The notes beneath the pieces were generated by a model. It had not been told where the DNA came from. It was given only the letters and a program-made list of their open reading frames with translations, and did not search any database. Made by a program: the position numbers and the translations under genes. A stretch of 32,000 nt of DNA from Aciduliprofundum boonei T469 (lineage in GTDB: Archaea > Thermoplasmatota > Thermoplasmata > Thermoplasmatales > Aciduliprofundaceae): the NCBI RefSeq assembly GCF_000025665.1, contig NC_013926.1, positions 1,020,001 to 1,052,000 on the forward strand, written 5' to 3'. Shown one piece after another: positions 1 through 8,703 of the stretch (position 1 is the stretch's first letter; each line of letters starts with the position of its first letter).

Positions 1-42
1 GGAAATGATTAAAATTCCCACAATGAGAGCTTTTGCCTTCAT
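1..42 (-). CDS. 5' end (14 codons, MKAKALIVGILIIS...) of a further hydrophobic/signal-peptide protein gene that continues past the left window edge. It is the next member of the pilin-like operon.
   Basis: An ATG (plus-strand cat at 40-42) lies 3 nt after the stop of the upstream gene. The N-terminus is hydrophobic and the frame stays open to the edge. It is too short to classify. Confidence 0.3.
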   Translation of the reverse strand, partial: MKAKALIVGILIIS

Positions 43-45
43 TTT

Positions 46-1008
46 CTACCACGCCCCTACCAGCCATCCCGCTATAATCCACATAGCACCCAATACCGCT
101 ATGGCAACGATTATCGTCCCCACGAATGCGTTTAGAGATTTCTCTTTCGCCTTCTTTTTCTTGTCTGGGTCGCTGGAAAAGTAATTCACCGCCACATTCA
201 CCCAGAGTATAGATATGATTATTCCTCCCGTGATGGATAGGAGTTCCTGCATTCTCTCCACTTCATACTCCACATAAGTTTGATTTACCGCTCCCGTGTG
301 CCCAAACCAGCCACCGAGTATGCCAAAGAAACCTCCTCCACCGTGCCACGATGAACCTCCTCCCCACCAACTTCCTCCTCCACCGCTCCAACTACCACCT
401 CCGCCACTCCATCCACCTCCTCCCCACCATCCGCCAGAACCACCAGAACTGCTCTGCTTGTTGTAGGTGATGTTTAGATATACCCAATCTATGTAGAAAT
501 GCCCACTTGCCCAACCGCTACTCCAACCAGCTTTTACCTCTACCCTCTTTCCTACATACTTCTTGACAAAGCTCGTTATGTTCATAGTTCCGATTTCCCA
601 CTTGCCCCTTGTTGTAGGGAAATATTGCTTCGTTCCCGATATGTCTAAATAAATTCTCAGGCTTTGAGAGTAAAGAGAATTGTAATACTTCATGCTCAAA
701 GTTGCGGATTTTATCAGGGTTGAGTTTATGTCTGGCAAGGTTAAGTATTGATAGATGTAGGCATAAGCATATTCTACACCCTCGCCATAGTGGCTATGCG
801 TCCAAAAATACGCCTCTCCATTTTGGAAAACACATCCCACATAATACCCTTGATAATCATGATATCTTGCTACACTCCAATTCCCACCACCGCTATCAAA
901 GCTCGGATTTTTTAGAAACTGCTCCGTCACGATTTTTGCATGTGCCCCTCCAACCACAAGCATTCCGATTAAGAGCAGGGAAATTAGCAGGGTTGTAATC
1001 CTTTTCAC
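46..1008 (-). CDS. Secreted fusion protein. It has a Sec signal peptide (..GGAHA|K), a ~160-aa beta-rich CBM/jelly-roll-like domain, a Gly/Trp/Ser linker and a C-terminal VirB2/TrbC-like pilin hairpin.
   Basis: 320-codon ORF. The GTG start overlaps the upstream stop (GTGA) and is preceded by GGGGGTGAT. The C-terminus has two hydrophobic helices flanking FSSDPDKKKKAKEK, and this region is conserved in four neighbouring genes. The N-domain starts with an EQFLKNPSF..W motif typical of CBM4/9-like modules. Confidence 0.65.
   Translation of the reverse strand: MKRITTLLISLLLIGMLVVGGAHAKIVTEQFLKNPSFDSGGGNWSVARYHDYQGYYVGCVFQNGEAYFWTHSHYGEGVEYAYAYIYQYLTLPDINSTLIKSATLSMKYYNSLYSQSLRIYLDISGTKQYFPTTRGKWEIGTMNITSFVKKYVGKRVEVKAGWSSGWASGHFYIDWVYLNITYNKQSSSGGSGGWWGGGGWSGGGGSWSGGGGSWWGGGSSWHGGGGFFGILGGWFGHTGAVNQTYVEYEVERMQELLSITGGIIISILWVNVAVNYFSSDPDKKKKAKEKSLNAFVGTIIVAIAVLGAMWIIAGWLVGAW
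292..453 (-). repeat. Low-complexity Gly/Trp/Ser linker coding repeat (SGGSGGWWGGGGWSGGGGSWSGGGGSWWGGGSSWHGGGG...)
   Basis: The plus strand shows cctcc/ccacc/ccaac reiterations. The translated GGW/GGS units were read directly from the sequence. Confidence 0.9.
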
Positions 1009-2033
1009 AATATCACCCCCACTATGTCAAACGCTCCTACTGCCCATCCCGCAAGGAGCCATATAGTTCCCAGCACCGCCATGGCGATTATGAGCGTTGC
1101 GAGGAGAGCTTTTAGAGCGTTCTCTTTTGCCCGTGATTTCCTATCGGGGTCATCGGAGAAGAAATCCAGCGCCTCTTTCACCCAGAGAACACTTATCACA
1201 GCACCGCCAACTATGGCTAATGCCCTCTGGATGTTCCCCACCACATACTCCACATAGGTTGCGTTCCCAGAGGTATTACCTGCAAACCAAACTCCTCCAC
1301 TTCCATGCCAAAATCCTCCTCCTCCACTCCAACCGCTACCGCTTCCCCACCAGCCACCAGAGCCACCTCCACTCCAAGAGCCACCATTGCCCCACCAACC
1401 TCCGCTACCGCTTGATGATACCTTATAAGTTATCGTGAGAGAAACATTGTAAAGGGTTGTTTCCACATACTTAAGCTTAGAACCACTTACTATGTGCAAA
1501 CCTGCTAAAACATACAAGGATTTTCCAGCATATTGCTTTACAATATCCGTTAAATTTGCTGTGTATATCTTCTCATAAGCCATACCAAGTTGGCTTTCCC
1601 ATCCCTCATTTGAAACATTGTATCCATCCTTTACAGCCACCCAAACATATTCCTTTGTACTAGAATCTTCATCGGCTTCATAATCTAACGAAAAAGTTGC
1701 GTTTATTATATCTCCATTCGGGATGTTAATCTTTTGCCAAATATAGCCATACCCTTCACCTAAAGTTGTCTCATCATCACTTCTCGCTTGAACCACATCA
1801 TACCATCGTCCTTTGTTGGAGTAATGGTATAAAAGCCAATCTATGCGCGAATCTCCCGCATGTGTATAAGTCCAATAAGCGCTATTGTTCGAAGATGTGA
1901 AGGTATTATCTTGAACTAATTGCTCCGTTTTTATGGTCTCTGCACTCACTTTTCCAGAGGATAAGAGTATGGATGTCAAGATTAGTACCACGAAAGATAG
2001 TGCCTTTCTAGATTTTCCTTTTCCAGATTTCAT
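1005..2033 (-). CDS. Secreted fusion protein, paralogue 2: signal peptide, beta-rich lectin-like domain, Gly/Trp/Ser linker and VirB2/TrbC-like pilin hairpin.
   Basis: The ORF runs to 2066, but the ATG at 2033 (MKSGKGKSRKALSFVV...) follows GGAGGTGAT with a 6-nt spacer and begins a signal peptide (..KVSA|E). The C-terminus reads YVEY..IQRALAIVGGAVISVLWVKEALDFFSDDPDRKSRAKENALKALLATLIIAMAVLGTIWLLAGW. Confidence 0.65.
   Translation of the reverse strand: MKSGKGKSRKALSFVVLILTSILLSSGKVSAETIKTEQLVQDNTFTSSNNSAYWTYTHAGDSRIDWLLYHYSNKGRWYDVVQARSDDETTLGEGYGYIWQKINIPNGDIINATFSLDYEADEDSSTKEYVWVAVKDGYNVSNEGWESQLGMAYEKIYTANLTDIVKQYAGKSLYVLAGLHIVSGSKLKYVETTLYNVSLTITYKVSSSGSGGWWGNGGSWSGGGSGGWWGSGSGWSGGGGFWHGSGGVWFAGNTSGNATYVEYVVGNIQRALAIVGGAVISVLWVKEALDFFSDDPDRKSRAKENALKALLATLIIAMAVLGTIWLLAGWAVGAFDIVGVIL
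1266..1418 (-). repeat. Gly/Trp/Ser linker coding repeat (SSSGSGGWWGNGGSWSGGGSGGWWGSGSGWSGGGGFWHGSGGVW...)
   Basis: Read directly from the translation of paralogue 2. Confidence 0.9.
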
Positions 2034-2956
2034 ATCACAATCACCTCCGAAGCTCCAACTACCCAACCAGCTATCATCCAGATTGCTCCCAAAACTGCCA
2101 ATGCGATTATTAGCGTCCCCACAATAGCAAGGAGCGTGTCATCCCTTAACCTCATCCTTTTATCAGGGTCTCTGGAAAAGTAATCCGTTCCCACTTTAAC
2201 CCACAATATCGCTATCAATCCCGTTCCAACTATCGCCATAACTCTCTGGATGTTCGCAGCAACGAATTCTACATAGGTTTGATTTCCCCCTCCTTTTCCA
2301 AACCACAATCCGCCACCGCCGAACCAAGTTCCTCCTCCGTGCCACCAATATCCTCCTCCACTAACACTACTATCATAAATAACCTCCAAACTCAGAGAGG
2401 TTATGTTCATCCTAAAACTATAATCCCCGTTGGAAGTATCGTAATCTATGTATGCCCCGAACTTGAAAGTCAATTTTTGCCCCGTGTAATTTGATAAAAA
2501 GCTCGTTATGTTAATATTAACATAAGCACTTCCTCCATTCGTGGCAGCCACGGGTGCCCACGAAACCTCTTTCCATAACCAAACACCCGTAGAATTAACA
2601 AATCCTACAACATACCTCATGTTTATTTGGTCTATGAAGTGTATCGTGATGGTAGCATTTTCGATTTCATAATTTGGAACTTGTATCTGTTGCGAAATGA
2701 GGGCATAAGAGGGGTCCGTGTCCGAGCATTGAGCATTAAAGTTTGAGTGGTAAAAGTAAGCATAGCCATCTCCCAACCTTATTACCCAACTATCTCCATA
2801 AGGGCCTCCTTTTTCCGTGTCCCAATATTCGTAATTATCACTTGCTTTGAAATCTGAATCTTGAATTAATTGAGAATTCACCAATTCTCCACTAACATAA
2901 GGAACTTGTGAAACGATTAATCCCAAGATAACCATTACCAGCACCATCTTTCTCAT
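2030..2956 (-). CDS. Secreted fusion protein, paralogue 3: signal peptide, beta-rich lectin-like domain, a shorter Gly/Trp linker and VirB2/TrbC-like pilin hairpin.
   Basis: The ORF runs to 3070, but the ATG at 2956 (MRKMVLVMVILGLIV..VSG|E) starts a signal peptide and overlaps the upstream stop as ATGA. The C-terminus reads NQTYVEF..ILWVKVGTDYFSRDPDKRMRLRDDTLLAIVGTLIIALAVLGAIWMIAGW. Confidence 0.65.
   Translation of the reverse strand: MRKMVLVMVILGLIVSQVPYVSGELVNSQLIQDSDFKASDNYEYWDTEKGGPYGDSWVIRLGDGYAYFYHSNFNAQCSDTDPSYALISQQIQVPNYEIENATITIHFIDQINMRYVVGFVNSTGVWLWKEVSWAPVAATNGGSAYVNINITSFLSNYTGQKLTFKFGAYIDYDTSNGDYSFRMNITSLSLEVIYDSSVSGGGYWWHGGGTWFGGGGLWFGKGGGNQTYVEFVAANIQRVMAIVGTGLIAILWVKVGTDYFSRDPDKRMRLRDDTLLAIVGTLIIALAVLGAIWMIAGWVVGASEVIVI
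2285..2371 (-). repeat. Gly/Trp linker coding repeat (SSVSGGGYWWHGGGTWFGGGGLWFGKGGG)
   Basis: Read directly from the translation of paralogue 3. Confidence 0.9.
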
Positions 2957-3201
2957 CCCACAGCCCCCGTTAGCCATCCTGCAATCATCCACAACGCACC
3001 CAATACTGCCAGAGCAATTATTAGCGTGGCAACCACAGCTAAGAAGGTACCATTTCCGTGCCAACTCCAATACGCAAGGTGCTTCGCAAAGGTGCTATCC
3101 CTAACTATGTCTTCGGTTTGTGGGCTACTGCCCTCTGCCGTTATAGAAACAAAAGAAAGAGAGAGAACGAAGAAAGCCAACAGAGAGGTTGCCTTTCTCA
3201 T
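2953..3201 (-). CDS. 82-aa internally deleted paralogue. It keeps the signal peptide, the first ~20 aa of the beta domain, a WSWHGNGT linker remnant and only the second pilin helix. It may be a decaying gene or a minor subunit.
   Basis: Sequence: MRKATSLLAFFVLSLSFVSITA|EGSSPQTEDIVRDSTFAK..YWSWHGNGT..LAVVATLIIALAVLGALWMIAGWLTGA. The ATG directly follows the upstream TAA, the SD is weak, and the stop overlaps the next start (ATGA). Confidence 0.5.
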   Translation of the reverse strand: MRKATSLLAFFVLSLSFVSITAEGSSPQTEDIVRDSTFAKHLAYWSWHGNGTFLAVVATLIIALAVLGALWMIAGWLTGAVG

Positions 3202-3684
3202 TTACAAAGCCCACACTAGTAAGCTGTTTGGTAGGATTATCTGGGTTGCGCCAACCATCCAGCCAGCGATTGCCCAGATGGCTCCGAACACAGCCATTGC
3301 TACGAGGATTGTTCCTACGAGTGCCTTGATTGCGTCTTCCTTTGCCATTGCCTTTCTCTGTGGGTCATCGCTGAAGAAATTGATTGCCACTTTAACCCAT
3401 AGGATTGCTATGATTATACCGCCGATTATTCCAAGCAGTACGAACAGCTTTTGAGTTATGTTCGATATGTATTGTGAGCCGTTCGCTGCCTGTGCTGCGT
3501 TGCTGGTTGTGGCGTCCACGACTGCATAGTAGATGTTGCCTTGCATTATGTCCTGAACATACTCTATGTTCATCGTGTTTATCACTTCGGCAGATACGAA
3601 TCCGCCGAGGGCAAGAGCCATCAGGAAGGTTGCCAATACCAAGCTCCTTACCTTGTTGTCCTTCTTCTTCTCAAGCTTCTCCAT
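3202..3684 (-). CDS. Minimal VirB2/TrbC-like pilin candidate: signal peptide, a short N-region and a two-helix hairpin. It is the likely core subunit.
   Basis: 160 aa, with GGAGGTGAT 6 nt upstream of the ATG. The signal peptide reads ..GGFVSA|E. The hairpin reads LFVLLGIIGGIIIAILWVKVAINFFSDDPQRKAMAKEDAIKALVGTILVAMAVFGAIWAIAGW. The helix / (S/D)DPxxKxxAK loop / helix pattern matches my recollection of T4SS pilin families. Confidence 0.65.
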   Translation of the reverse strand: MEKLEKKKDNKVRSLVLATFLMALALGGFVSAEVINTMNIEYVQDIMQGNIYYAVVDATTSNAAQAANGSQYISNITQKLFVLLGIIGGIIIAILWVKVAINFFSDDPQRKAMAKEDAIKALVGTILVAMAVFGAIWAIAGWMVGATQIILPNSLLVWAL

Positions 3685-3691
3685 TTCTACA

Positions 3692-5926
3692 TCACCTCCT
3701 TTTTAGCAGGTGCTTTTTCTTTCCTCCTTCTTCTCCCGACGGGGCTTCCTCTGTCTGCAAAGTTCCCTGCAATTTCTCTAATGGATAAACCCTGATTACC
3801 CCGTCCGTATCTACTCTCTCATTCACTAAATAGTGGTCTTTCGCAAAGTCCAGCATAACTCCTACTTCATCCTCAGTTATGCCCATCCTGTTGCTCACAT
3901 CCTTTATGACATCACCCCTTTTCGCTCCTTCATTCTCTCCTATGTATGCCATTATCTCGTCCAGCACGGCCCTCTCCTTCGGAGATAGGCTTTCCTCGCT
4001 CTCCCTCTTTCTCTTTTTCTTCTTTAACTGCCTCATCAAAACCACCACCGCTATGATAGCGAGGATAAGCATTAACATCGGATAGAGGAGAAGGTGCATG
4101 AATGGAGAACCCCTTACCTTCTCCCTCTGCGGTGGTGGTGGAATGCTGTATGATACCTGTATCACTCTTTCCTGTGTGTTCTGGACTTCATCTACTGCCA
4201 CGATTTTGAATTGGTAGTTTCCTTGCTTGTCTATCTTTATAGTCCAATGCGTAGAGTTGCCTTGGTTGTAGAGAACCCATTGATTTCCCTGTGCCACATA
4301 GATGAACACTTGTATCGGTGAAGCGTCCTTGACCGTGAAATTGATAGTTCCCGGTTTTATGAAGTGGTAAGAACCGAGCAATTCCAAAATCTCTGGTGGA
4401 GTGGTATCTATTCTAAACATTACTTCCTTTGTTATCGTCTTTCCACCCTTGAAAACTGCCTTGACATAGAAGGTATGGTTTCCATCCGCTAAACTCACTT
4501 GGTAAGATTCGTTCATCGTCTTGATGTATTGAGTGTTATCTACCTTGATTTCGTAATACTCCAGAGGCCCCGTGGATGTCCATTTAACCTTAACTACATT
4601 CGTGCCAAAGAGCGTGTTGTTCTCTGGAGAGGTTATGGTTAAAGTGGGTGGATGTGGCCTGTTGTAAATCGTGAAATTGTAATCATACATAGCCACATTG
4701 CCTATCTTATCACTTGCTATTATCGTCAATCTGTGTAGCCCGTTGAAATACCTTGTAGTGTTCCACTCGTAATCTATGGAATTTGTGCCGTTGGCAACGA
4801 AGTAATTGTCTATGTAGAGCTTGATTGAAGCCATGCCCGTGACATCGTCCGTTCCCTTGATTTTTATCTCCACATTACCGCTCAAAGTTCCGTTGCCAGA
4901 GGGCTTGGGAGAAAGGAGCTTTATCACGGGTGGAGTGTTATCCACGATGACATACACGCTCGCAGAGTTCTTGTTCCCTGCTTTATCATACACGATTACG
5001 CTTATCAGGTGCTTACCATCCGTGTAGTTTTCCGTGTTCCAAATGAATAGGTATGGATAATGATATGCGGTGTATGTGAGGTTTCCATCTATGAAGAATT
5101 GAACCTTTCCTATACCGCTAACATTGTCAGATACGGATACATTCAAGGTGGCTATTCCCTTGAGATAAAGATTGCTTATGATAGCCACGCTCGGTGGGTG
5201 GTTATCTACCAAGTAGGTGAATATGTAATTGGCTTCATTTCCCGCATTGTCCCACACTTGAACGGTTATGTTGTGATGTCCATCCCTATATTTCTCCGTG
5301 TCCCAGATGTACGGGAATGCGTAGAATGAGGATATTTCCGTTAGAGTGTGGTTATAAACCTTATCGTTGTCTATGTAAAGATTTACCTTCCATATTCCAG
5401 AGGATATGGAATAGAAGGGGTCCTTAACGGTTATGTTCAATTCCTGCACTCCTTTGAGAATGCCAGAGTTATTTACCTGTATGCTGGCAACGGGAACATG
5501 GTTATCCACATAGTAGGTTTTTGAGAGGGATACCTCCCCAGAGGGATAATGGGCTTCCACCTTTACGATGTGTGGCCCTTCTCCCGTGTAGAAGGTATCC
5601 CAAAAATAGTGGTAGGTGGTGTAAGTGTAATTCGTGCCGTTCTCATTCACGATGTTATCGCTCTGGTTGAATTGAGAGATGAATTGCCCATCCAGATAGA
5701 AGTCCGCATAGGTGAAATTGCCCGTGATATTGACATCCACGCTAACATTCCCGTGTATGAATGTGTAGTTGCCTATCGTGTGTGAAGAAGGTATGGTTAT
5801 GCTGATTTCTGGTGCTGGATTAGCTGCATGGCTGAAGTTCGCTATCGGAGCAAGGAGCAAGGCAAGTAAGGCAATGTAAAATAAAACGCCCCTCCTCCGA
5901 TGATCCTTGAACTCTTTTTGGCTCAT
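3692..5926 (-). CDS. Type I membrane glycoprotein. It has a signal peptide, about six Ig-like repeats, one TM helix and a ~113-aa cytoplasmic tail containing a winged-helix (MarR/TrmB-like) domain.
   Basis: 744 aa. Repeat boundaries are marked by VDNHVP / VDNHPP / VDNTPP / NRPHPP / DTTPP. I hand-counted about 25 N-x-S/T sequons. The TM helix is FMHLLLYPMLMLILAIIAVVVLM, followed by KKKKRKRE. The tail reads LSPKERAVLDEIMAYIGENEGAKRGDVIKDVSNRMGITEDEVGVMLDFAKDHYLV. Confidence 0.75.
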   Translation of the reverse strand: MSQKEFKDHRRRGVLFYIALLALLLAPIANFSHAANPAPEISITIPSSHTIGNYTFIHGNVSVDVNITGNFTYADFYLDGQFISQFNQSDNIVNENGTNYTYTTYHYFWDTFYTGEGPHIVKVEAHYPSGEVSLSKTYYVDNHVPVASIQVNNSGILKGVQELNITVKDPFYSISSGIWKVNLYIDNDKVYNHTLTEISSFYAFPYIWDTEKYRDGHHNITVQVWDNAGNEANYIFTYLVDNHPPSVAIISNLYLKGIATLNVSVSDNVSGIGKVQFFIDGNLTYTAYHYPYLFIWNTENYTDGKHLISVIVYDKAGNKNSASVYVIVDNTPPVIKLLSPKPSGNGTLSGNVEIKIKGTDDVTGMASIKLYIDNYFVANGTNSIDYEWNTTRYFNGLHRLTIIASDKIGNVAMYDYNFTIYNRPHPPTLTITSPENNTLFGTNVVKVKWTSTGPLEYYEIKVDNTQYIKTMNESYQVSLADGNHTFYVKAVFKGGKTITKEVMFRIDTTPPEILELLGSYHFIKPGTINFTVKDASPIQVFIYVAQGNQWVLYNQGNSTHWTIKIDKQGNYQFKIVAVDEVQNTQERVIQVSYSIPPPPQREKVRGSPFMHLLLYPMLMLILAIIAVVVLMRQLKKKKRKRESEESLSPKERAVLDEIMAYIGENEGAKRGDVIKDVSNRMGITEDEVGVMLDFAKDHYLVNERVDTDGVIRVYPLEKLQGTLQTEEAPSGEEGGKKKHLLKRR

Positions 5927-5951
5927 ACATCAATTGCTTATTTTCTTCTAC

Positions 5952-5960
5952 TATATAAAA
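5952..5960 (-). promoter_or_regulatory. TATA box (minus-strand TTTTATATA) for the surface-protein/pilin operon. The spacing implies a leaderless or near-leaderless mRNA.
   Basis: AACTTTTTATATA sits about 26-34 nt upstream of the ATG at 5926, and no SD lies in between. Confidence 0.5.
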
Positions 5961-6017
5961 AGTTGAAATTTTAAAATTGCATGGAGAGTAAGGAAAATAC
6001 TAATTCTCCTTTAAATC

Positions 6018-6024
6018 AAAAAAA
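6018..6024 (-). terminator. Oligo-T (T7) archaeal terminator candidate that ends the upstream four-gene operon.
   Basis: The minus strand reads CAATTTTTTTGATTT about 80 nt after the stop at 6104. It lies upstream of the next TATA box. Confidence 0.35.
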
Positions 6025-6103
6025 TTGACCCTCCCCATCTGTATCAATTCTGGACAAATTTAGGTAATTGAAGAAAAATGTCCTCCTCCATAAATATACA
6101 TGC

Positions 6104-6343
6104 TCACATCAGCACTAGAACCTCTAATTCTTTGTTCTCCAATTTCTTTTGTGTGGGATAGCAGCGACTTACTGCCCCTGCTATCATCAGCTTCTCCTTC
6201 TTTGTTAATCTCTCTCCTTTCACAGCTTCGGCAATCTTGTAGATATCCTCTAACTTTATTGTATCTCTCAGAGTTATATCATTCGTTATCCTCATAGCTT
6301 CCTCTATTATCCTCTTTATCTGGAATCTCTTCAACTCACGCAT
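6104..6343 (-). CDS. Hypothetical small protein (79 aa from the ATG; the ORF track starts at an upstream TTG at 6364).
   Basis: The ATG at 6343 is preceded by GAGG and overlaps the upstream stop (ATGCGTGA). The product is charged and helical, and I recognise no family. Confidence 0.5.
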   Translation of the reverse strand: MRELKRFQIKRIIEEAMRITNDITLRDTIKLEDIYKIAEAVKGERLTKKEKLMIAGAVSRCYPTQKKLENKELEVLVLM

Positions 6344-7682
6344 AACCCTCAACCTCTCCTCCAAAGTTTGGATAATCTTTCAACATCAGGTTTATGAATC
6401 TCGTATGAAGAACCACATGGTCTTTTATCTCCCTAACATTCCTCTCTAACTCCTTTATCTTCTCCCTTAACTCATCTACATCCTTGCTGGACTGCTGGAA
6501 ATAGAGATTTGCAGAGATTTCATCTAACCTTCTCCTCAGGATTTCGTATTCATCTACAATCTTTCCTACCAGCTCCAACTTGTTCTCTATTAACTTCTTC
6601 GCCAACTCCCCTCCTTCCTCGCTCACTCCTTCAAACTCCAAATCTCCAGATGAACCAAAATCGCTCTTGTTTATTGTTATCTTTATCTCCTCCCCCTCCC
6701 AGAGAACCTTGCTTATCTCGTCTAAATTGAAGCCGAAATGAGAAGATATGCCTATCCTTATTGCCCTATCCACAAATTCTTTCCCAAACAATTTTTCTGC
6801 ATAGAACTCCCATACTTCCTTCCTTTTCGGATAAATCATAACCTTTGCTATTCCCTTCTTGTAAGAGTATGTGATATAGAAGGTTGCGCCCAGAGTTTTT
6901 ATCTTCAACCCGTGAGACCTATCCCTTTCTCCCGTTGGATACGCTTCCAAGTATATCCCATTCACATAGTCCTTTATCGGCTCTTTGCTCCAGAGATACT
7001 TTGAGATTATCCCTAACTCATCCTCTCTAATCGGGATTGGCTTCTTTATCCTGAAATGATGTGAGATTGTAATTAAATTGTCCCCTTTTCTAACATCTGT
7101 CCCTTCTTTTCTAACATGCACCCCTAGGGGTGTCCCTTCTTCCATGAGCTCCCTCGCTCTATCCACATTTACCTTGTATCTTCCCCTTCCAATTCTTTGC
7201 AGAACCCCTAAATCTCTTAATCTGTAGAAATAAATTCTCTTTGTCTCTGCGTTTCCTATACCATAAAGGTATGGGCCCCTCAAAAAATCCTGTGGAGATA
7301 TTGTTCTGCTTCTCATACTCTCCCCTGTTAGTACTGCAAGCATCCTCCTAAACAATGGAATATATCCCTCAGATTTGTAACATGTCCCTTTGTTACATCT
7401 ATTCTCAGAATTTCTAAGTTCTACACTCTCTCTACTCAAATGTAACATACCCCTAAAATTTGTCCCCTTTTGTCCCCTTGAATGTAACATGCTGTCCCTT
7501 TGGATTGAAAAAATATATTGGCCCCGGGAAACCCTGGAGCCATACCTCTGCAAAATCTTCTTTGCGTTCTCATAACTCAAAGGAATGTCCCTTTTTAGTG
7601 CTTCATACTGCAGGGTTTTAGGTGTCCATGTGGCATTTGGATTATTCCGAAGAATTCCTAGAACTGCTTTGGATATGCTCAT
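6336..7682 (-). CDS. Hypothetical 448-aa protein with an apparent N-terminal wHTH, a second wHTH (..FYRLRDLGVLQRIGRGRYKV) and a C-terminal coiled coil. It could be an element-encoded regulator or replication protein (speculative).
   Basis: Long intact ORF with GGAG 5 nt upstream of the ATG. I could find no tyrosine-recombinase R..HxxR..Y motif, Walker motifs or primase motifs. Confidence 0.6.
   Translation of the reverse strand: MSISKAVLGILRNNPNATWTPKTLQYEALKRDIPLSYENAKKILQRYGSRVSRGQYIFSIQRDSMLHSRGQKGTNFRGMLHLSRESVELRNSENRCNKGTCYKSEGYIPLFRRMLAVLTGESMRSRTISPQDFLRGPYLYGIGNAETKRIYFYRLRDLGVLQRIGRGRYKVNVDRARELMEEGTPLGVHVRKEGTDVRKGDNLITISHHFRIKKPIPIREDELGIISKYLWSKEPIKDYVNGIYLEAYPTGERDRSHGLKIKTLGATFYITYSYKKGIAKVMIYPKRKEVWEFYAEKLFGKEFVDRAIRIGISSHFGFNLDEISKVLWEGEEIKITINKSDFGSSGDLEFEGVSEEGGELAKKLIENKLELVGKIVDEYEILRRRLDEISANLYFQQSSKDVDELREKIKELERNVREIKDHVVLHTRFINLMLKDYPNFGGEVEGYA
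7079..7595. repeat. Iteron-like cluster. It holds 8 copies of TGTCCC(C)TT (minus strand AAGGG(G)ACA) and 5 copies of T(G/C)TAACAT (minus strand ATGTTA(C/G)A).
   Basis: TGTCCC(C)TT starts at 7079, 7098, 7131, 7383, 7461, 7471, 7493 and 7586. T(G/C)TAACAT starts at 7089, 7110, 7376, 7441 and 7483. There is a perfect 10-nt tandem TTTGTCCCCT x2 at 7459-7478 and an inverted repeat TGTAACA-N8-TGTTACA at 7376-7397. Confidence 0.7.
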
Positions 7683-7774
7683 ATTATCTCCAGTATTCCA
7701 CTACCTCTCTCTTTCAACTTCTCTAGCGCCTCTTCCAAGGTTTCTGCCTTATCTACTATCTCTCCTGTTTCCAT
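7679..7774 (-). CDS. Possible 31-aa ORF (METGEIVDKAETLEEALEKLKERGSGILEII), translationally coupled to the 448-aa gene.
   Basis: It fills the gap between neighbouring genes, and its stop overlaps the downstream ATG (ATGA). The SD is poor and it falls below the ORF-track cutoff. Confidence 0.3.
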   Translation of the reverse strand: METGEIVDKAETLEEALEKLKERGSGILEII

Positions 7775-7791
7775 ATCCCTAATGTAGTACA

Positions 7792-8037
7792 TCATGCAGA
7801 TGCTGATTCCTCCACTCTGGGCTGTGTATCTATCGGTATCAACGGATTATCTTCCTTATCCCACACCTGATAGCTCACTGGTCTTGCGTTGGGCTCTCCT
7901 TCTAATTCATATTTAGTTAGAATGTAAAGAGAGCCATACTCTTCTATCAGTTCTTTTTCTGTCTCTGTTATCCTGCTCTCTGTCAAATCTCCCGTGCTCC
8001 ATAAAATCTCCAACTTATATACCCTACTCTTTTTCAT
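7792..8037 (-). CDS. Hypothetical small acidic protein (81 aa from MKKSRVYKLEI...). It is the first gene of the four-gene operon.
   Basis: GGAGGTGAT lies 3 nt upstream of the ATG at 8037, so the ORF-track start at 8058 is unlikely. I recognise no family. Confidence 0.55.
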   Translation of the reverse strand: MKKSRVYKLEILWSTGDLTESRITETEKELIEEYGSLYILTKYELEGEPNARPVSYQVWDKEDNPLIPIDTQPRVEESASA

Positions 8038-8218
8038 AAAATCACCTCCTGGGTACAAAATGCCCCCGTTGGTTTAGTCAACAAACCTATCAGTGCCCCC
8101 GAACCTAAGGGGCGGGGGCAACCGAAAGCTTTATAGTGGGCAATTGCCCCCCATTTTTCAACTTGAGCCTGTCTACAACACGAAAAAACATTTTTATTTT
8201 TTATTTGAAATGTTGGAT

Positions 8219-8223
8219 AAAAA
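8219..8223 (-). terminator. T5 stretch immediately after the tRNA-Trp 3' end.
   Basis: The minus strand reads ...TGCCCCC-A-CTTTTTAT. Confidence 0.4.
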
Positions 8224-8224
8224 G

Positions 8225-8362
8225 TGGGGGCACTGGGATTCGAACCCAGGTCCGCGGGTCTCTCCTGAGGGTCAGCGCTCCAGTTATTCATCATCTTTCA
8301 GCTGACCCGCTGCTCATCATCTAACTGGAGCCCACCAGGATGCCTGACTACCCCATGCCCCC
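8225..8362 (-). tRNA. trnW: tRNA-Trp (anticodon CCA at 8328-8326) with a 65-nt intron (8324-8260) at the canonical 37/38 position. CCA is not encoded.
   Basis: Hand-folded. The acceptor is GGGGGCA/TGCCCCC, the D stem GGGT/ATCC and the anticodon stem GTGGG/CCCGC. The loop is CTCCAG|..|A and the T arm CTGGG-TTCGAAT-CCCAG. There is a BHB-like arrangement with central helix CTCC/GGAG and 3-nt bulges AG|T and AG|A. Confidence 0.9.
8272..8320 (-). ncRNA. Box C/D sRNA embedded in the tRNA-Trp intron. It is predicted to guide 2'-O-methylation of C34 and C39 of its own tRNA.
   Basis: Box C is AUGAUGA (8320-8314), followed by a 12-nt guide and D' CUGA (8301-8298). Box C' is AUGAUGA (8294-8288), followed by a 12-nt guide and D CUGA (8275-8272). 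The D guide pairs with GCTCCAGTTA, and the N+5 rule gives C34. The D' guide pairs with GACCCGC, and N+5 gives C39. Confidence 0.85.
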
Positions 8363-8559: not shown

Positions 8560-8608
8560 CTTGACACCATCCTTGGGTAAATTGAACTTAAATATAAAGA
8601 TTACCCAG

Positions 8609-8683
8609 CGGGCGCGGCGGGATTTGAACCCGCGATCACTGACTTAGAAGGCCAGCGCCCTATCCATGCTAGGCCACGCGCCC
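8609..8683 (-). tRNA. trnR: tRNA-Arg (anticodon TCT), 75 nt, no intron, CCA not encoded.
   Basis: Hand-folded. The acceptor is GGGCGCG/CGCGCCC, the D stem GCCT/GGGC and the anticodon arm CTGGC-CTTCTAA-GTCAG. The variable loop is TGATC and the T arm GCGGG-TTCAAAT-CCCGC. Confidence 0.9.
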
Positions 8684-8703
8684 AATTCCCTAATATGCAA
8701 TCC

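What the first reader, a model, noticed from the sequence alone, without database searches (positions are those of the whole stretch)
1..8224. Accessory island flush against the tRNA-Trp 3' end: possible integrated conjugative-type element without a visible integrase
Everything left of tRNA-Trp is non-housekeeping and forms two minus-strand operons, 8037-6104 and 5926-<1. These are separated by a T7 terminator and a TATA box. The content (conjugative-type pilin-like genes, wHTH proteins, iteron-like repeats) and the position at a tRNA 3' end are the classic signature of archaeal integrated plasmids and proviruses. However, I see no integrase, no partitioned int(N)/int(C) fragments and no direct repeat of the tRNA 3' half, and the element continues beyond position 1. 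The alternative is a chromosomal, domesticated DNA-uptake or adhesion locus in the manner of Ced/Ted.
Basis: inference. Interest (0 to 1): 0.6.

Follow-up and report, generated by a model that had tools for sequence, protein, structure and literature searches.

The report
Archaeal conjugative element in tRNA-Trp
Window 1-8224 is the tRNA-proximal end of a roughly 69-kb mobile DNA element inserted into the tryptophan tRNA gene of the vent archaeon Aciduliprofundum boonei; it encodes a bacterial-style DNA-transfer kit (pili, motor ATPases, DNA-nicking enzyme) that is rare in archaea, though a 2011 survey had already counted an ICE in this species.

Summary
tRNA-Trp lies at 8225-8362 (minus strand); its intron holds the C/D-box sRNA sR3. 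Everything to its left is accessory DNA.

- **Boundaries:** an exact 17-nt direct repeat (AAAGTGGGGGCACTGGG) sits at window 8221-8237 and at genome 958,821-958,837. The distal copy ends 13 nt from the end of an intact tyrosine integrase. The interval is 69.4 kb.
- **Transfer genes:** VirB4-like ATPase, VirB6-like protein, six VirB2-type pilin paralogues, and an RHH / 172-aa relaxase / VirD4 coupling-protein operon. The relaxase has conserved Tyr and His-triad motifs, and its model matches MobA, NES and MobM.
- **Cargo:** McrBC, a methylase and a type III-A CRISPR-Cas block.
- **Other support:** the 13.3-kb tRNA-Asn element of the same genome has the same end-to-end backbone. The interval is missing from a complete same-genus genome, its tetranucleotide signature is atypical (z = 6.3), and two metagenome contigs show the same element-end/tRNA-Trp junction.

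No clean empty site exists, because the left flank is rearranged, and tandem accretion is not excluded. Guglielmini et al. 2011 listed "one ICE in archaea, in A. boonei", so its existence is not new; the boundaries and anatomy are. Earlier readers of this scan noted pieces of the same element in neighbouring windows.

The parts
8221..8237 (.). attR: 17-nt core AAAGTGGGGGCACTGGG (13 nt of the tRNA-Trp 3' end plus 4 nt downstream). The identical attL copy lies outside the window at genome 958,821-958,837 (window coordinate about -61,179).
   Evidence: it is the only significant second copy in the 75 kb searched (blastn-short E = 8e-4); no exact copy of 14 nt or more exists elsewhere in the genome.
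8225..8362 (-). tRNA-Trp gene with intron; integration target, left intact by the insertion
   Evidence: conserved with its right flank in G001, G002 and G003.
8270..8324 (-). C/D-box sRNA sR3 inside the tRNA-Trp intron
   Evidence: Rfam RF01133, 47.6 bits, E = 4e-9.
8061..8151 (.). Cluster of four att-core heptamers (TGCCCCC/GGGGGCA) and a GC-rich hairpin just inside attR; candidate recombinase or accessory-protein binding sites (inferred)
7792..8037 (-). Small att-proximal gene (81 aa from the ATG at 8037; 88-aa ORF from the TTG at 8058); backbone gene shared with the tRNA-Asn element (91% identity)
6336..7682 (-). 448-aa protein: two N-terminal wHTH domains, an unassigned alpha/beta domain and a C-terminal coiled coil; hallmark gene of this element family; function unknown (regulator or replication/maintenance factor inferred)
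   Evidence: No Pfam match; model and fold searches; 25%-identical paralogue at the same position in the tRNA-Asn element; patchy and multi-copy in relatives.
6104..6364 (-). 86-aa backbone gene overlapping the end of the 448-aa gene; 78-86% identical paralogue in the tRNA-Asn element
5927..6103 (-). Inter-operon spacer with an oligo-T terminator-like run and a TTTATATA box
   Evidence: Read directly from the sequence.
3692..5926 (-). 744-aa surface protein: signal peptide, four or more bacterial Ig-like (Big_7) repeats, one TM segment and a cytoplasmic tail; candidate mating adhesin (inferred)
   Evidence: Pfam Big_7 102 bits; TM prediction; homologue in G001:C159.
3202..3684 (-). 160-aa VirB2/TrbC-type pilin (signal peptide plus two TM segments)
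   Evidence: PF18895 34.9 bits, above the cut-off; topology.
2953..3201 (-). 82-aa ORF that looks like a deletion derivative of a pilin fusion (signal peptide plus the last TM segment)
46..3070 (-). Three paralogous fusion proteins (46-1008, 1005-2066, 2030-3070): signal peptide, beta-rich ectodomain, Gly/Trp-rich linker and a C-terminal pilin-type two-TM domain
1..42 (-). 3' end of a 405-aa sixth pilin-type fusion gene. The operon continues leftwards outside the window (genome coordinates): VirB6-like 422 aa (1,017,556-1,018,824), 246 aa, 136 aa, and the VirB4-like ATPase 566 aa (1,014,731-1,016,431).

Best explanation
Window 1-8224 is the tRNA-proximal end of an integrative and conjugative element (ICE) of about 69.4 kb, inserted into the 3' end of tRNA-Trp of Aciduliprofundum boonei (genome 958,821-1,028,237). 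Shown: the element is bounded by a 17-nt direct repeat, and the tRNA gene is reconstituted by the element's own copy. Going from attL to attR it carries, in order: an intact tyrosine integrase (335 aa); regulators and McrBC; an RHH / 172-aa HUH relaxase / VirD4-type coupling protein operon; about 29 kb of cargo (type III-A CRISPR-Cas and other defence-like genes); a conserved 197-aa mini-recombinase; a DNA methylase; a VirB4-like ATPase operon with VirB3-like and VirB6-like membrane proteins; six VirB2-type pilin paralogues; an Ig-repeat surface protein; and the 88/448/86-aa backbone module next to attR. Inferred life cycle: the integrase recombines attL with attR to release a circle. The RHH protein and relaxase nick an oriT, probably in the 450-bp spacer upstream of their operon. 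The coupling protein hands the relaxase-bound strand to the VirB4-powered channel. The pilins, some carrying lectin-like ectodomains, and the Ig-repeat protein make contact with the recipient cell. The element then re-integrates at tRNA-Trp. The defence cargo benefits the host and the element.
For: The att repeat and the abutting integrase are shown. The T4SS, T4CP and relaxase rest. The relaxase family has an invariant Tyr20 and an invariant HxNTxHPHxH motif; its model (pLDDT 83) has MobA 2ns6, NES 4ht4, MobM, TrwC and TraI as its top hits. The 13.3-kb tRNA-Asn element shares the same order and orientation of genes (88-aa 91%, 448-aa 25%, 86-aa 78-86%, RHH 78%, integrase 32%) and is bounded by a 14-nt tRNA-end repeat, which ties together the two ends of the 69-kb interval. 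G001:C159 joins the VirD4 and VirB4/pilin modules directly and sits at another chromosomal site. The interval is missing from the complete same-genus genome G002. VirB4 and the 448-aa family are patchy among relatives. The tetranucleotide signature deviates at z = 6.3. Metagenome contigs L066 and L081 show the element end (85-91% identity) abutting tRNA-Trp, whose own flank is only 80% identical. Guglielmini 2011 (PMC3158045) reports one archaeal ICE, in A. boonei. This locus holds the genome's only clear VirB4-like gene, its only T4CP and its only relaxase-like hit.
Against: No clean empty site was found. The conserved left core ends at 957,189 and in G002 and G003 it is followed by homologues of G000 genes at 1,302-1,313 kb, so G000 is rearranged at the island edge. 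A displaced MFS gene lies between that core and attL. The repeat is only 17 nt. The integrase-335 block is not linked to the conjugative module in relatives, and integrase-335 has no close homologue there. No excised circle or attP junction was observed. GC content equals the genome's. Transfer has not been tested.
Confidence: 0.72

Rival explanations
1. Tandem accretion. The interval is two or more elements stacked at tRNA-Trp: a conjugative element proper (about 973.6-1,028.2 kb, with the 197-aa recombinase) plus a separate integrase-335 element (958.8-973.6 kb). The internal att has been lost, so the 17-nt repeats bound an array and not one original element.
For: In G001 the 27.5-kb conjugative module occurs without the integrase-335 block and at another site. 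The 960.8-968.2 kb block lies on separate contigs in G001 and G003. A second recombinase is conserved inside the interval. Integrase-335 has no close homologue in G001.
Against: No internal att-like copy exists. There is only one 88/448/86 module and one integrase of the tRNA-Asn-element type, at opposite ends exactly as in that 13.3-kb element. G001 is a fragmented MAG with 4% contamination, and no terminal repeats were found there. Even as an array, the present structure would excise as a unit through the outer att sites.
Confidence: 0.18
2. A domesticated chromosomal DNA-exchange or adhesion locus (Ced/Ted-like) that merely sits in a variable region next to tRNA-Trp. Under this reading the 17-nt repeat and the distant integrase belong to unrelated events.
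For: Ced and Ted show that archaeal VirB2/VirB4-like systems can be chromosomal (PMC9905601). GC content equals the genome's. Weaker VirB4 homologues (24-34% identity) are common in other families of the order.
Against: The genes are absent from 3 of 4 same-genus genomes and patchy within the family. They are linked to a relaxase and a T4CP, which Ced and Ted lack. A collinear copy sits at another site in G001. The element end is better conserved than the host flank in metagenomes. The tetranucleotide signature is atypical.
Confidence: 0.05
3. A decayed, immobile remnant: once an ICE, now fixed and kept only for its cargo (CRISPR-Cas, restriction systems) or its surface proteins.
For: The left flank is rearranged. 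The interval is large for a 1.49-Mb genome. No excision evidence was obtained.
Against: The att copies are identical. The integrase, relaxase, T4CP, VirB4 and pilin ORFs are all intact, and the transfer genes are conserved at 69-93% identity with the G001 copy.
Confidence: 0.05

Closest known systems
[quoted passage not shown] 2011 (PMC3158045), VirB4 class MPF-FATA
   Same: Almost certainly the same locus. It holds the only clear VirB4-like gene, the only T4CP and the only relaxase-like gene of this genome.
   Different: The survey gives one sentence: no boundaries, att site, target tRNA, integrase, pilins or cargo. Those are worked out here. In the held library no later paper describes it.
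Bacterial tRNA-targeting ICEs of monoderm type (MPF-FA/FATA) with MOBQ/MOBP-like relaxases
   Same: Tyrosine integrase plus a tRNA 3'-end att; RHH-relaxase-T4CP order; VirB4, VirB6-like and VirB3-like genes; a surface adhesin; defence cargo.
   Different: The host is archaeal. The relaxase is a 172-aa minimal domain. There are multiple VirB2-type pilins fused to large ectodomains. No cell-wall hydrolase is present. The T4CP is closest to those of haloarchaeal plasmids (24-34% identity), so this is not a recent bacterial import.
Thaumarchaeal ICEs (Krupovic 2019, PMC6563490) and Sulfolobus conjugative plasmids (pNOB8/pING)
   Same: Archaeal elements with VirB4 and VirD4 homologues; a TFIIB-like zinc-ribbon gene lies nearby (972,053); integration by a tyrosine recombinase.
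   Different: Those elements have no detectable relaxase and no recognisable pilin. This one has both.
Ced/Ted DNA-import systems of Crenarchaeota (Beltran 2023, PMC9905601)
   Same: VirB2-fold pilins together with a VirB4/HerA-like ATPase and a VirB6-like membrane protein in an archaeon.
   Different: Ced and Ted are chromosomal, import cellular DNA and lack a relaxase, T4CP, integrase and att. No sequence-level match to the solved CedA1/TedC chains was found.
13.3-kb tRNA-Asn integrative element of the same genome
   Same: Same backbone order and orientation, paralogous genes and a tRNA 3'-end direct repeat.
   Different: It has no conjugation genes and is five times smaller. It uses another tRNA, and its integrase is only 32% identical.

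Membership tests
Integrative and conjugative element (ICE) | Site-specific recombinase at one end | tested here: met
   335-aa tyrosine integrase, PF00589 79 bits plus an N-terminal SAM-like domain, R..HxxR..H..Y present; its gene ends 13 nt from attL.
Integrative and conjugative element (ICE) | Direct att repeats bounding the element, one within the target gene | tested here: met
   17-nt exact repeat at 958,821 and 1,028,221; no other copy.
Integrative and conjugative element (ICE) | VirB4-family ATPase | tested here: met
   566 aa; PF19044 42 bits, AAA_10 37 bits, DUF87 31 bits, all above their cut-offs.
Integrative and conjugative element (ICE) | Type IV coupling protein | tested here: met
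   602 aa; PF10412 132 bits, PF02534 88 bits, TraG-D_C 54 bits; only one in the genome.
Integrative and conjugative element (ICE) | Relaxase (HUH nuclease with a catalytic Tyr and a His triad) | tested here: met
   The Pfam hits on the G000 protein are sub-threshold (16.7 and 16.9 bits), though family members carry precomputed PF03432/PF18555 hits. Tyr20 and HxNTxHPHxH are invariant. The model's top Foldseek hits are MobA, NES, MobM, TrwC and TraI. Nicking activity was not tested.
Integrative and conjugative element (ICE) | Absence from related genomes, or an empty site | tested here: inconclusive
   The interval is absent from G002 and mostly absent from G004. Each relative has different DNA at the tRNA-Trp 3' end. 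The flanks are rearranged, so no exact attB could be shown.
Integrative and conjugative element (ICE) | Excision to a circle and transfer between cells | not testable with these tools
   Needs sequencing reads or PCR across attP and attB, and mating assays.
VirB2/TrbC-type conjugative pilin (PF18895) | Signal peptide plus two hydrophobic helices, and a profile match above the cut-off | tested here: met
   160-aa ORF 3202-3684: 34.9 bits against a cut-off of 26.6, with three hydrophobic segments. The larger paralogues match below the cut-off but share the domain at 50-63% identity.
SSV-type integrative element (integrase partitioned on integration) | int(N) and int(C) fragments at the two ends, with att inside the integrase gene | tested here: not met
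   The integrase is whole and lies beside att, not across it. ORF 8034-8294, which overlaps the tRNA, matches relatives only through the tRNA sequence.
Ced/Ted domesticated DNA-import system | Chromosomal, conserved within the lineage, with no relaxase, T4CP or integrase | tested here: not met
   The locus is strain-specific, att-bounded and linked to a relaxase and a T4CP.

The most novel reading that the evidence does not exclude
This is a working, relaxase-dependent (bacterial-style, single-strand) conjugation system native to Archaea. It is carried by an ICE that builds pili from VirB2-type subunits, several of them fused to lectin-like ectodomains, and it moves a complete type III-A CRISPR-Cas system between cells. 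It would be the mobile counterpart from which domesticated systems such as Ced/Ted could have arisen. It would also contradict the view that archaeal conjugation generally lacks relaxases and pilins.
Probability: 0.35. Interest if true: 0.8.

Novelty: new member of a known kind. Interest (0 to 1): 0.55.

Why it matters
The mechanism of archaeal conjugation is poorly known. Reviews and primary papers state that archaeal conjugative plasmids and ICEs lack recognisable relaxases and pilins (PMC6563490, PMC9905601). This element has both, along with a coupling protein, a VirB4-like ATPase, an integrase and defined att sites, and it sits in a cultivable thermoacidophile. That makes three questions directly testable: whether relaxase-dependent transfer occurs in Archaea, whether conjugative pili are built by a mobile archaeal element, and whether CRISPR-Cas spreads by conjugation at hydrothermal vents. 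It also shows that the tRNA-Trp 3' end is a hot spot for islands and rearrangements in this genus. A 2011 survey had already counted the locus as an ICE, which tempers the novelty.

Tried and rejected
1. ARAGORN does not call tRNA-Trp because of its intron; Rfam and direct reading resolved it.
2. SSV-type partitioned integrase: rejected. ORF 8034-8294 is an artefact of reading through the tRNA.
3. Exact copies of the tRNA end of 14 nt or more: none. Extending the 12-mer hit by hand showed the 17-mer, which includes 4 nt of downstream flank.
4. Internal att sites that would prove a tandem array: none.
5. Terminal repeats or a tRNA at the ends of the G001:C159 copy: none found. It is a fragmented MAG, so this is uninformative.
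6. Empty-site test: failed for structural reasons. G002 and G003 carry other islands at tRNA-Trp, and their left core is joined to other DNA. Metagenome hits with a 96%-identical tRNA side (L060, L124) come from more distant genomes with unrelated left DNA.
7. Function of the 448-aa protein: Pfam at E = 10, the ESM Atlas, AlphaFold plus Foldseek, and VIA-wide gave only the wHTH domains and the coiled coil. The central domain was not searched on its own.
8. PDB sequence search with the 160-aa pilin found no CedA1, TedC or VirB2 chain. This is a sequence search only, and no pilin structure was predicted.
9. GC content does not distinguish the island (0.392 against 0.392); only the k-mer signature does.
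10. The bacterial promoter/terminator scanner is not informative for an archaeon.

Full report
**Where the window lies.** The window is G000:C1:1,020,001-1,052,000 of a single-contig genome of 1,486,778 bp. Earlier notes of this scan and a protein name returned identify it as Aciduliprofundum boonei T469. I did not verify the species independently.

**Checking the observation.** ARAGORN reports only tRNA-Arg(TCT) at 8608-8683 and tRNA-Lys. Rfam finds the C/D-box sRNA sR3 at 8270-8324 on the minus strand (47.6 bits). The sequence around it reads as a tRNA-Trp gene on the minus strand, from 8362 (5' end) to 8225 (3' end), with sR3 inside its intron.

To the left, all long ORFs are on the minus strand. 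They are an 88-aa ORF (ATG at 8037), a 448-aa ORF (7682-6336), an 86-aa ORF (6364-6104), a 744-aa Ig-repeat protein (5926-3692), a 160-aa pilin (3684-3202), an 82-aa pilin remnant, and three paralogues of 320-353 aa. The spacer 5927-6103 carries a T7 run and a TTTATATA box on the minus strand.

Pfam gives T4SS_pilin (PF18895) at 34.9 bits for the 160-aa ORF, above the cut-off, and sub-threshold hits for two of the three paralogues. All three paralogues share the pilin's C-terminal domain at 50-63% identity. The att-core heptamer TGCCCCC occurs four times in 8061-8151 and is over-represented in the window (10 copies against 3.6 +/- 1.9 expected).

**Finding the missing ends.** The tRNA-Trp 3' end has no exact second copy of 14 nt or more. 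A 12-mer hit at genome 958,825 extends into the downstream flank to give a 17-nt exact direct repeat, AAAGTGGGGGCACTGGG, at 958,821-837 and 1,028,221-237. It is the only significant match to the tRNA region in the 75 kb searched (E = 8e-4). Thirteen nucleotides to its right a 335-aa tyrosine integrase gene ends (958,851-959,858, minus strand; PF00589 79 bits; catalytic R, HxxR, H and Y present). The repeats enclose 69.4 kb.

**Content of the interval.** In order from attL to attR:
- the integrase;
- a wHTH protein, a Cas4-like PD-(D/E)XK nuclease, McrB and McrC, and a TFIIB-like zinc-ribbon protein;
- an RHH protein (973,645), a relaxase candidate (974,150-974,668) and a VirD4/TraG coupling protein (974,668-976,476; PF10412 132 bits);
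- a block of about 29 kb with Cas1, Cas6, Csm2, Cas10, two CRISPR arrays, a DUF4143 ATPase, a beta-CASP nuclease, an AAA_15 protein and a MoxR-VWA pair;
- a SHOCT protein, a 281-aa ORF and a 197-aa catalytic-domain-only recombinase, which has the same start and length in G001;
- an HTH-CBS regulator and an 852-aa N6/N4 methylase;
- the minus-strand operon: VirB4-like ATPase (566 aa; PF19044, AAA_10, DUF87), a 136-aa and a 246-aa TM protein, a polytopic 422-aa VirB6-like protein, and a 405-aa sixth pilin-type fusion. This operon runs into the window.

**The relaxase.** The ORF upstream of the T4CP has only weak Pfam hits (Relaxase 16.7 bits, MobL 16.9 bits). It belongs to a family of 172-aa proteins, several of which carry precomputed PF03432 or PF18555 hits. 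The alignment shows an invariant Tyr20 in an A-x-Y-I motif and an invariant H-x-N-T-x-H-P-H-x-H-I motif. The AlphaFold model is confident (pLDDT 83.4, pTM 0.82). Its top Foldseek PDB hits are almost all conjugative relaxases: MobA R1162 (2ns6, E = 5e-4), NES, MobM, TrwC and TraI of pKM101. Together with the RHH gene upstream and the overlapping T4CP gene downstream, this is a canonical DNA-processing module. A 33-nt imperfect inverted repeat in the upstream spacer (973,316-973,405) is a weak oriT candidate.

**Is the 69.4 kb one element?** Three lines of evidence link its parts.
1. The 13.3-kb tRNA-Asn element of the same genome (1,148,825-1,162,197) is bounded by a 14-nt repeat of its tRNA end. 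It has the same order and orientation relative to its tRNA: 88-aa (91% identity), 448-aa-like (25%, E = 4e-12), 86-aa (78-86%), RHH on the opposite strand (78%), a g963072-like gene (47%), then the integrase (32%) next to the distal att. The two ends of the 69-kb interval therefore match the two ends of a known small element.
2. In the same-genus MAG G001, contig C159 carries a collinear copy running from the 88-aa gene through the pilins, VirB4 and the 197-aa recombinase directly to the T4CP, relaxase and RHH genes, without the 29-kb block. It is flanked by homologues of G000 genes at 708-711 kb and 199 kb. The two conjugation modules therefore belong together. The CRISPR-Cas block is cargo that the G001 copy lacks, and the module has moved.
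3. No internal att copy exists.

Against a single origin, the integrase-335 block is not attached to the conjugative module in G001 or G003, and integrase-335 has no close homologue there. Accretion of two elements therefore remains possible (about 0.18).

**Comparison with relatives.** The right flank (tRNA-Trp, tRNA-Arg and the genes at 8695 onwards) is syntenic in G002 and G003 at 71-90% protein identity. The complete genome G002 lacks essentially all of the interval. At its tRNA-Trp 3' end it has an unrelated island of about 21 kb, with a ResIII helicase, a methylase and BrxC/D-like ATPases. G003 has yet another arrangement there.

VirB4 close homologues occur in 1 of 4 same-genus genomes and 6 of 20 family genomes. 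The 448-aa family occurs in 5 of the 21 family genomes searched, G000 included, and is sometimes multi-copy.

A clean empty site could not be shown. The conserved left core ends at 957,189 and in G002 and G003 it continues with homologues of G000 genes at 1,302-1,313 kb. G000 therefore carries a rearrangement whose breakpoint coincides with the island edge. The MFS gene between the core and attL lies elsewhere in G002.

**Metagenomes.** Scanning for the 17-mer gave 82 loci, most of them chance hits. Two contigs (L066, L081) show the element's right end at 85-91% identity, then the att core, then a tRNA-Trp side that is only about 80% identical. Related elements therefore occupy the same site in a different host background.

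**Composition.** GC content equals the genome's, but the tetranucleotide distance of the interval exceeds all 150 random windows of the same size (z = 6.3). The rest of the window is typical (z = -0.2).

**Literature.** Guglielmini et al. 2011 state that they found only one ICE in archaea, in A. boonei, using VirB4 + T4CP + relaxase as the criterion. This locus holds the genome's only clear VirB4-like gene, its only T4CP and its only relaxase-like hit, so it is that ICE. No other paper in the held library describes it. Krupovic 2019 found no relaxases in thaumarchaeal ICEs or Sulfolobus plasmids. Beltran 2023 notes that no pilus protein is recognisable in archaeal conjugative plasmids, and that Ced and Ted are chromosomal. 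The T4CP's nearest plasmid relatives are haloarchaeal (24-34% identity), which argues against a recent bacterial import.

**Verdict.** The integrase and att repeat exist but lie 69 kb away. The kind of element is known and this locus was counted in 2011. Its anatomy is newly laid out here: the tRNA-Trp target, the att core, a minimal relaxase, a pilin array with ectodomain fusions, CRISPR-Cas cargo, and a backbone shared with a small integrative element. That anatomy makes it a good experimental entry point into archaeal conjugation.

Noticed in passing
window 8270-8324 (minus strand): The tRNA-Trp intron encodes the C/D-box sRNA sR3 (Rfam RF01133). From general knowledge this arrangement is known in Euryarchaeota; it explains why ARAGORN missed the tRNA.
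   Followed up: partly
genome 976,500-1,005,700 (L013/L002/L001): A complete type III-A CRISPR-Cas block (Cas1, Cas6, Csm2, Cas10, two arrays at about 977.7-978.3 kb and 983.1-984.2 kb) plus other defence-like genes lies inside the element, between its two conjugation modules. The G001 copy lacks it.
   Followed up: partly
genome 1,007,250-1,007,843 (L001:7250-7843, minus strand): A 197-aa tyrosine recombinase consisting only of the catalytic domain, with KxxR in place of HxxR. G001 has it with the same start and length (83% identity). It may be a resolvase, or the conjugative module's own integrase.
   Followed up: partly
genome 957,189-958,820 (L014): The conserved core ends at 957,189. In G002 and G003 it is followed by homologues of G000 genes at 1,302-1,313 kb. 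The MFS transporter gene 957,235-958,725 sits between the core and attL, and its G002 orthologue lies between homologues of G000 genes at 45.4 kb. This is a chromosomal rearrangement breakpoint at the island edge.
   Followed up: partly
L031:10480 to L032:11362 (G002): In G002 the tRNA-Trp 3' end carries an unrelated defence island of about 21 kb (ResIII helicase 1074 aa, N6/N4 methylase 1044 aa, two BrxC/D-like ATPases, a DEAD helicase) with no recognisable integrase. After it the chromosome continues with homologues of G000 genes at 1,225 kb.
   Followed up: partly
L037:3324-3345 (G001:C83): A 22-nt copy of the att region lies on a separate G001 contig, next to a 53%-identical 88-aa-like gene that is on the opposite side of att from its position in G000. 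Unexplained.
   Followed up: no
window 2953-3201 (minus strand): An 82-aa ORF joins a pilin-fusion signal peptide and the start of an ectodomain directly to the last pilin TM helix. It looks like a recombination or deletion product between paralogues.
   Followed up: no
protein P0020: A 78%-identical, 453-aa relative of the 448-aa protein is named ABOONEI_536 [A. boonei T469] and lies on a 308-kb contig. The complete genome has no such paralogue (its only one is 25% identical). This may be a draft-assembly or strain difference.
   Followed up: no
window 3692-5926 (minus strand): The 744-aa Ig-repeat surface protein has, after its single TM helix, a cytoplasmic tail of about 100 aa that by eye resembles a winged helix. 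Weaker paralogous Ig-repeat regions lie at genome 739 kb and 163 kb.
   Followed up: no
genome 972,053-972,457 (L013:12053-12457): A 134-aa protein with a TFIIB-type zinc ribbon lies just upstream of the relaxase/T4CP module. This echoes the TFIIB homologues reported next to archaeal T4SS genes (PMC6563490).
   Followed up: no
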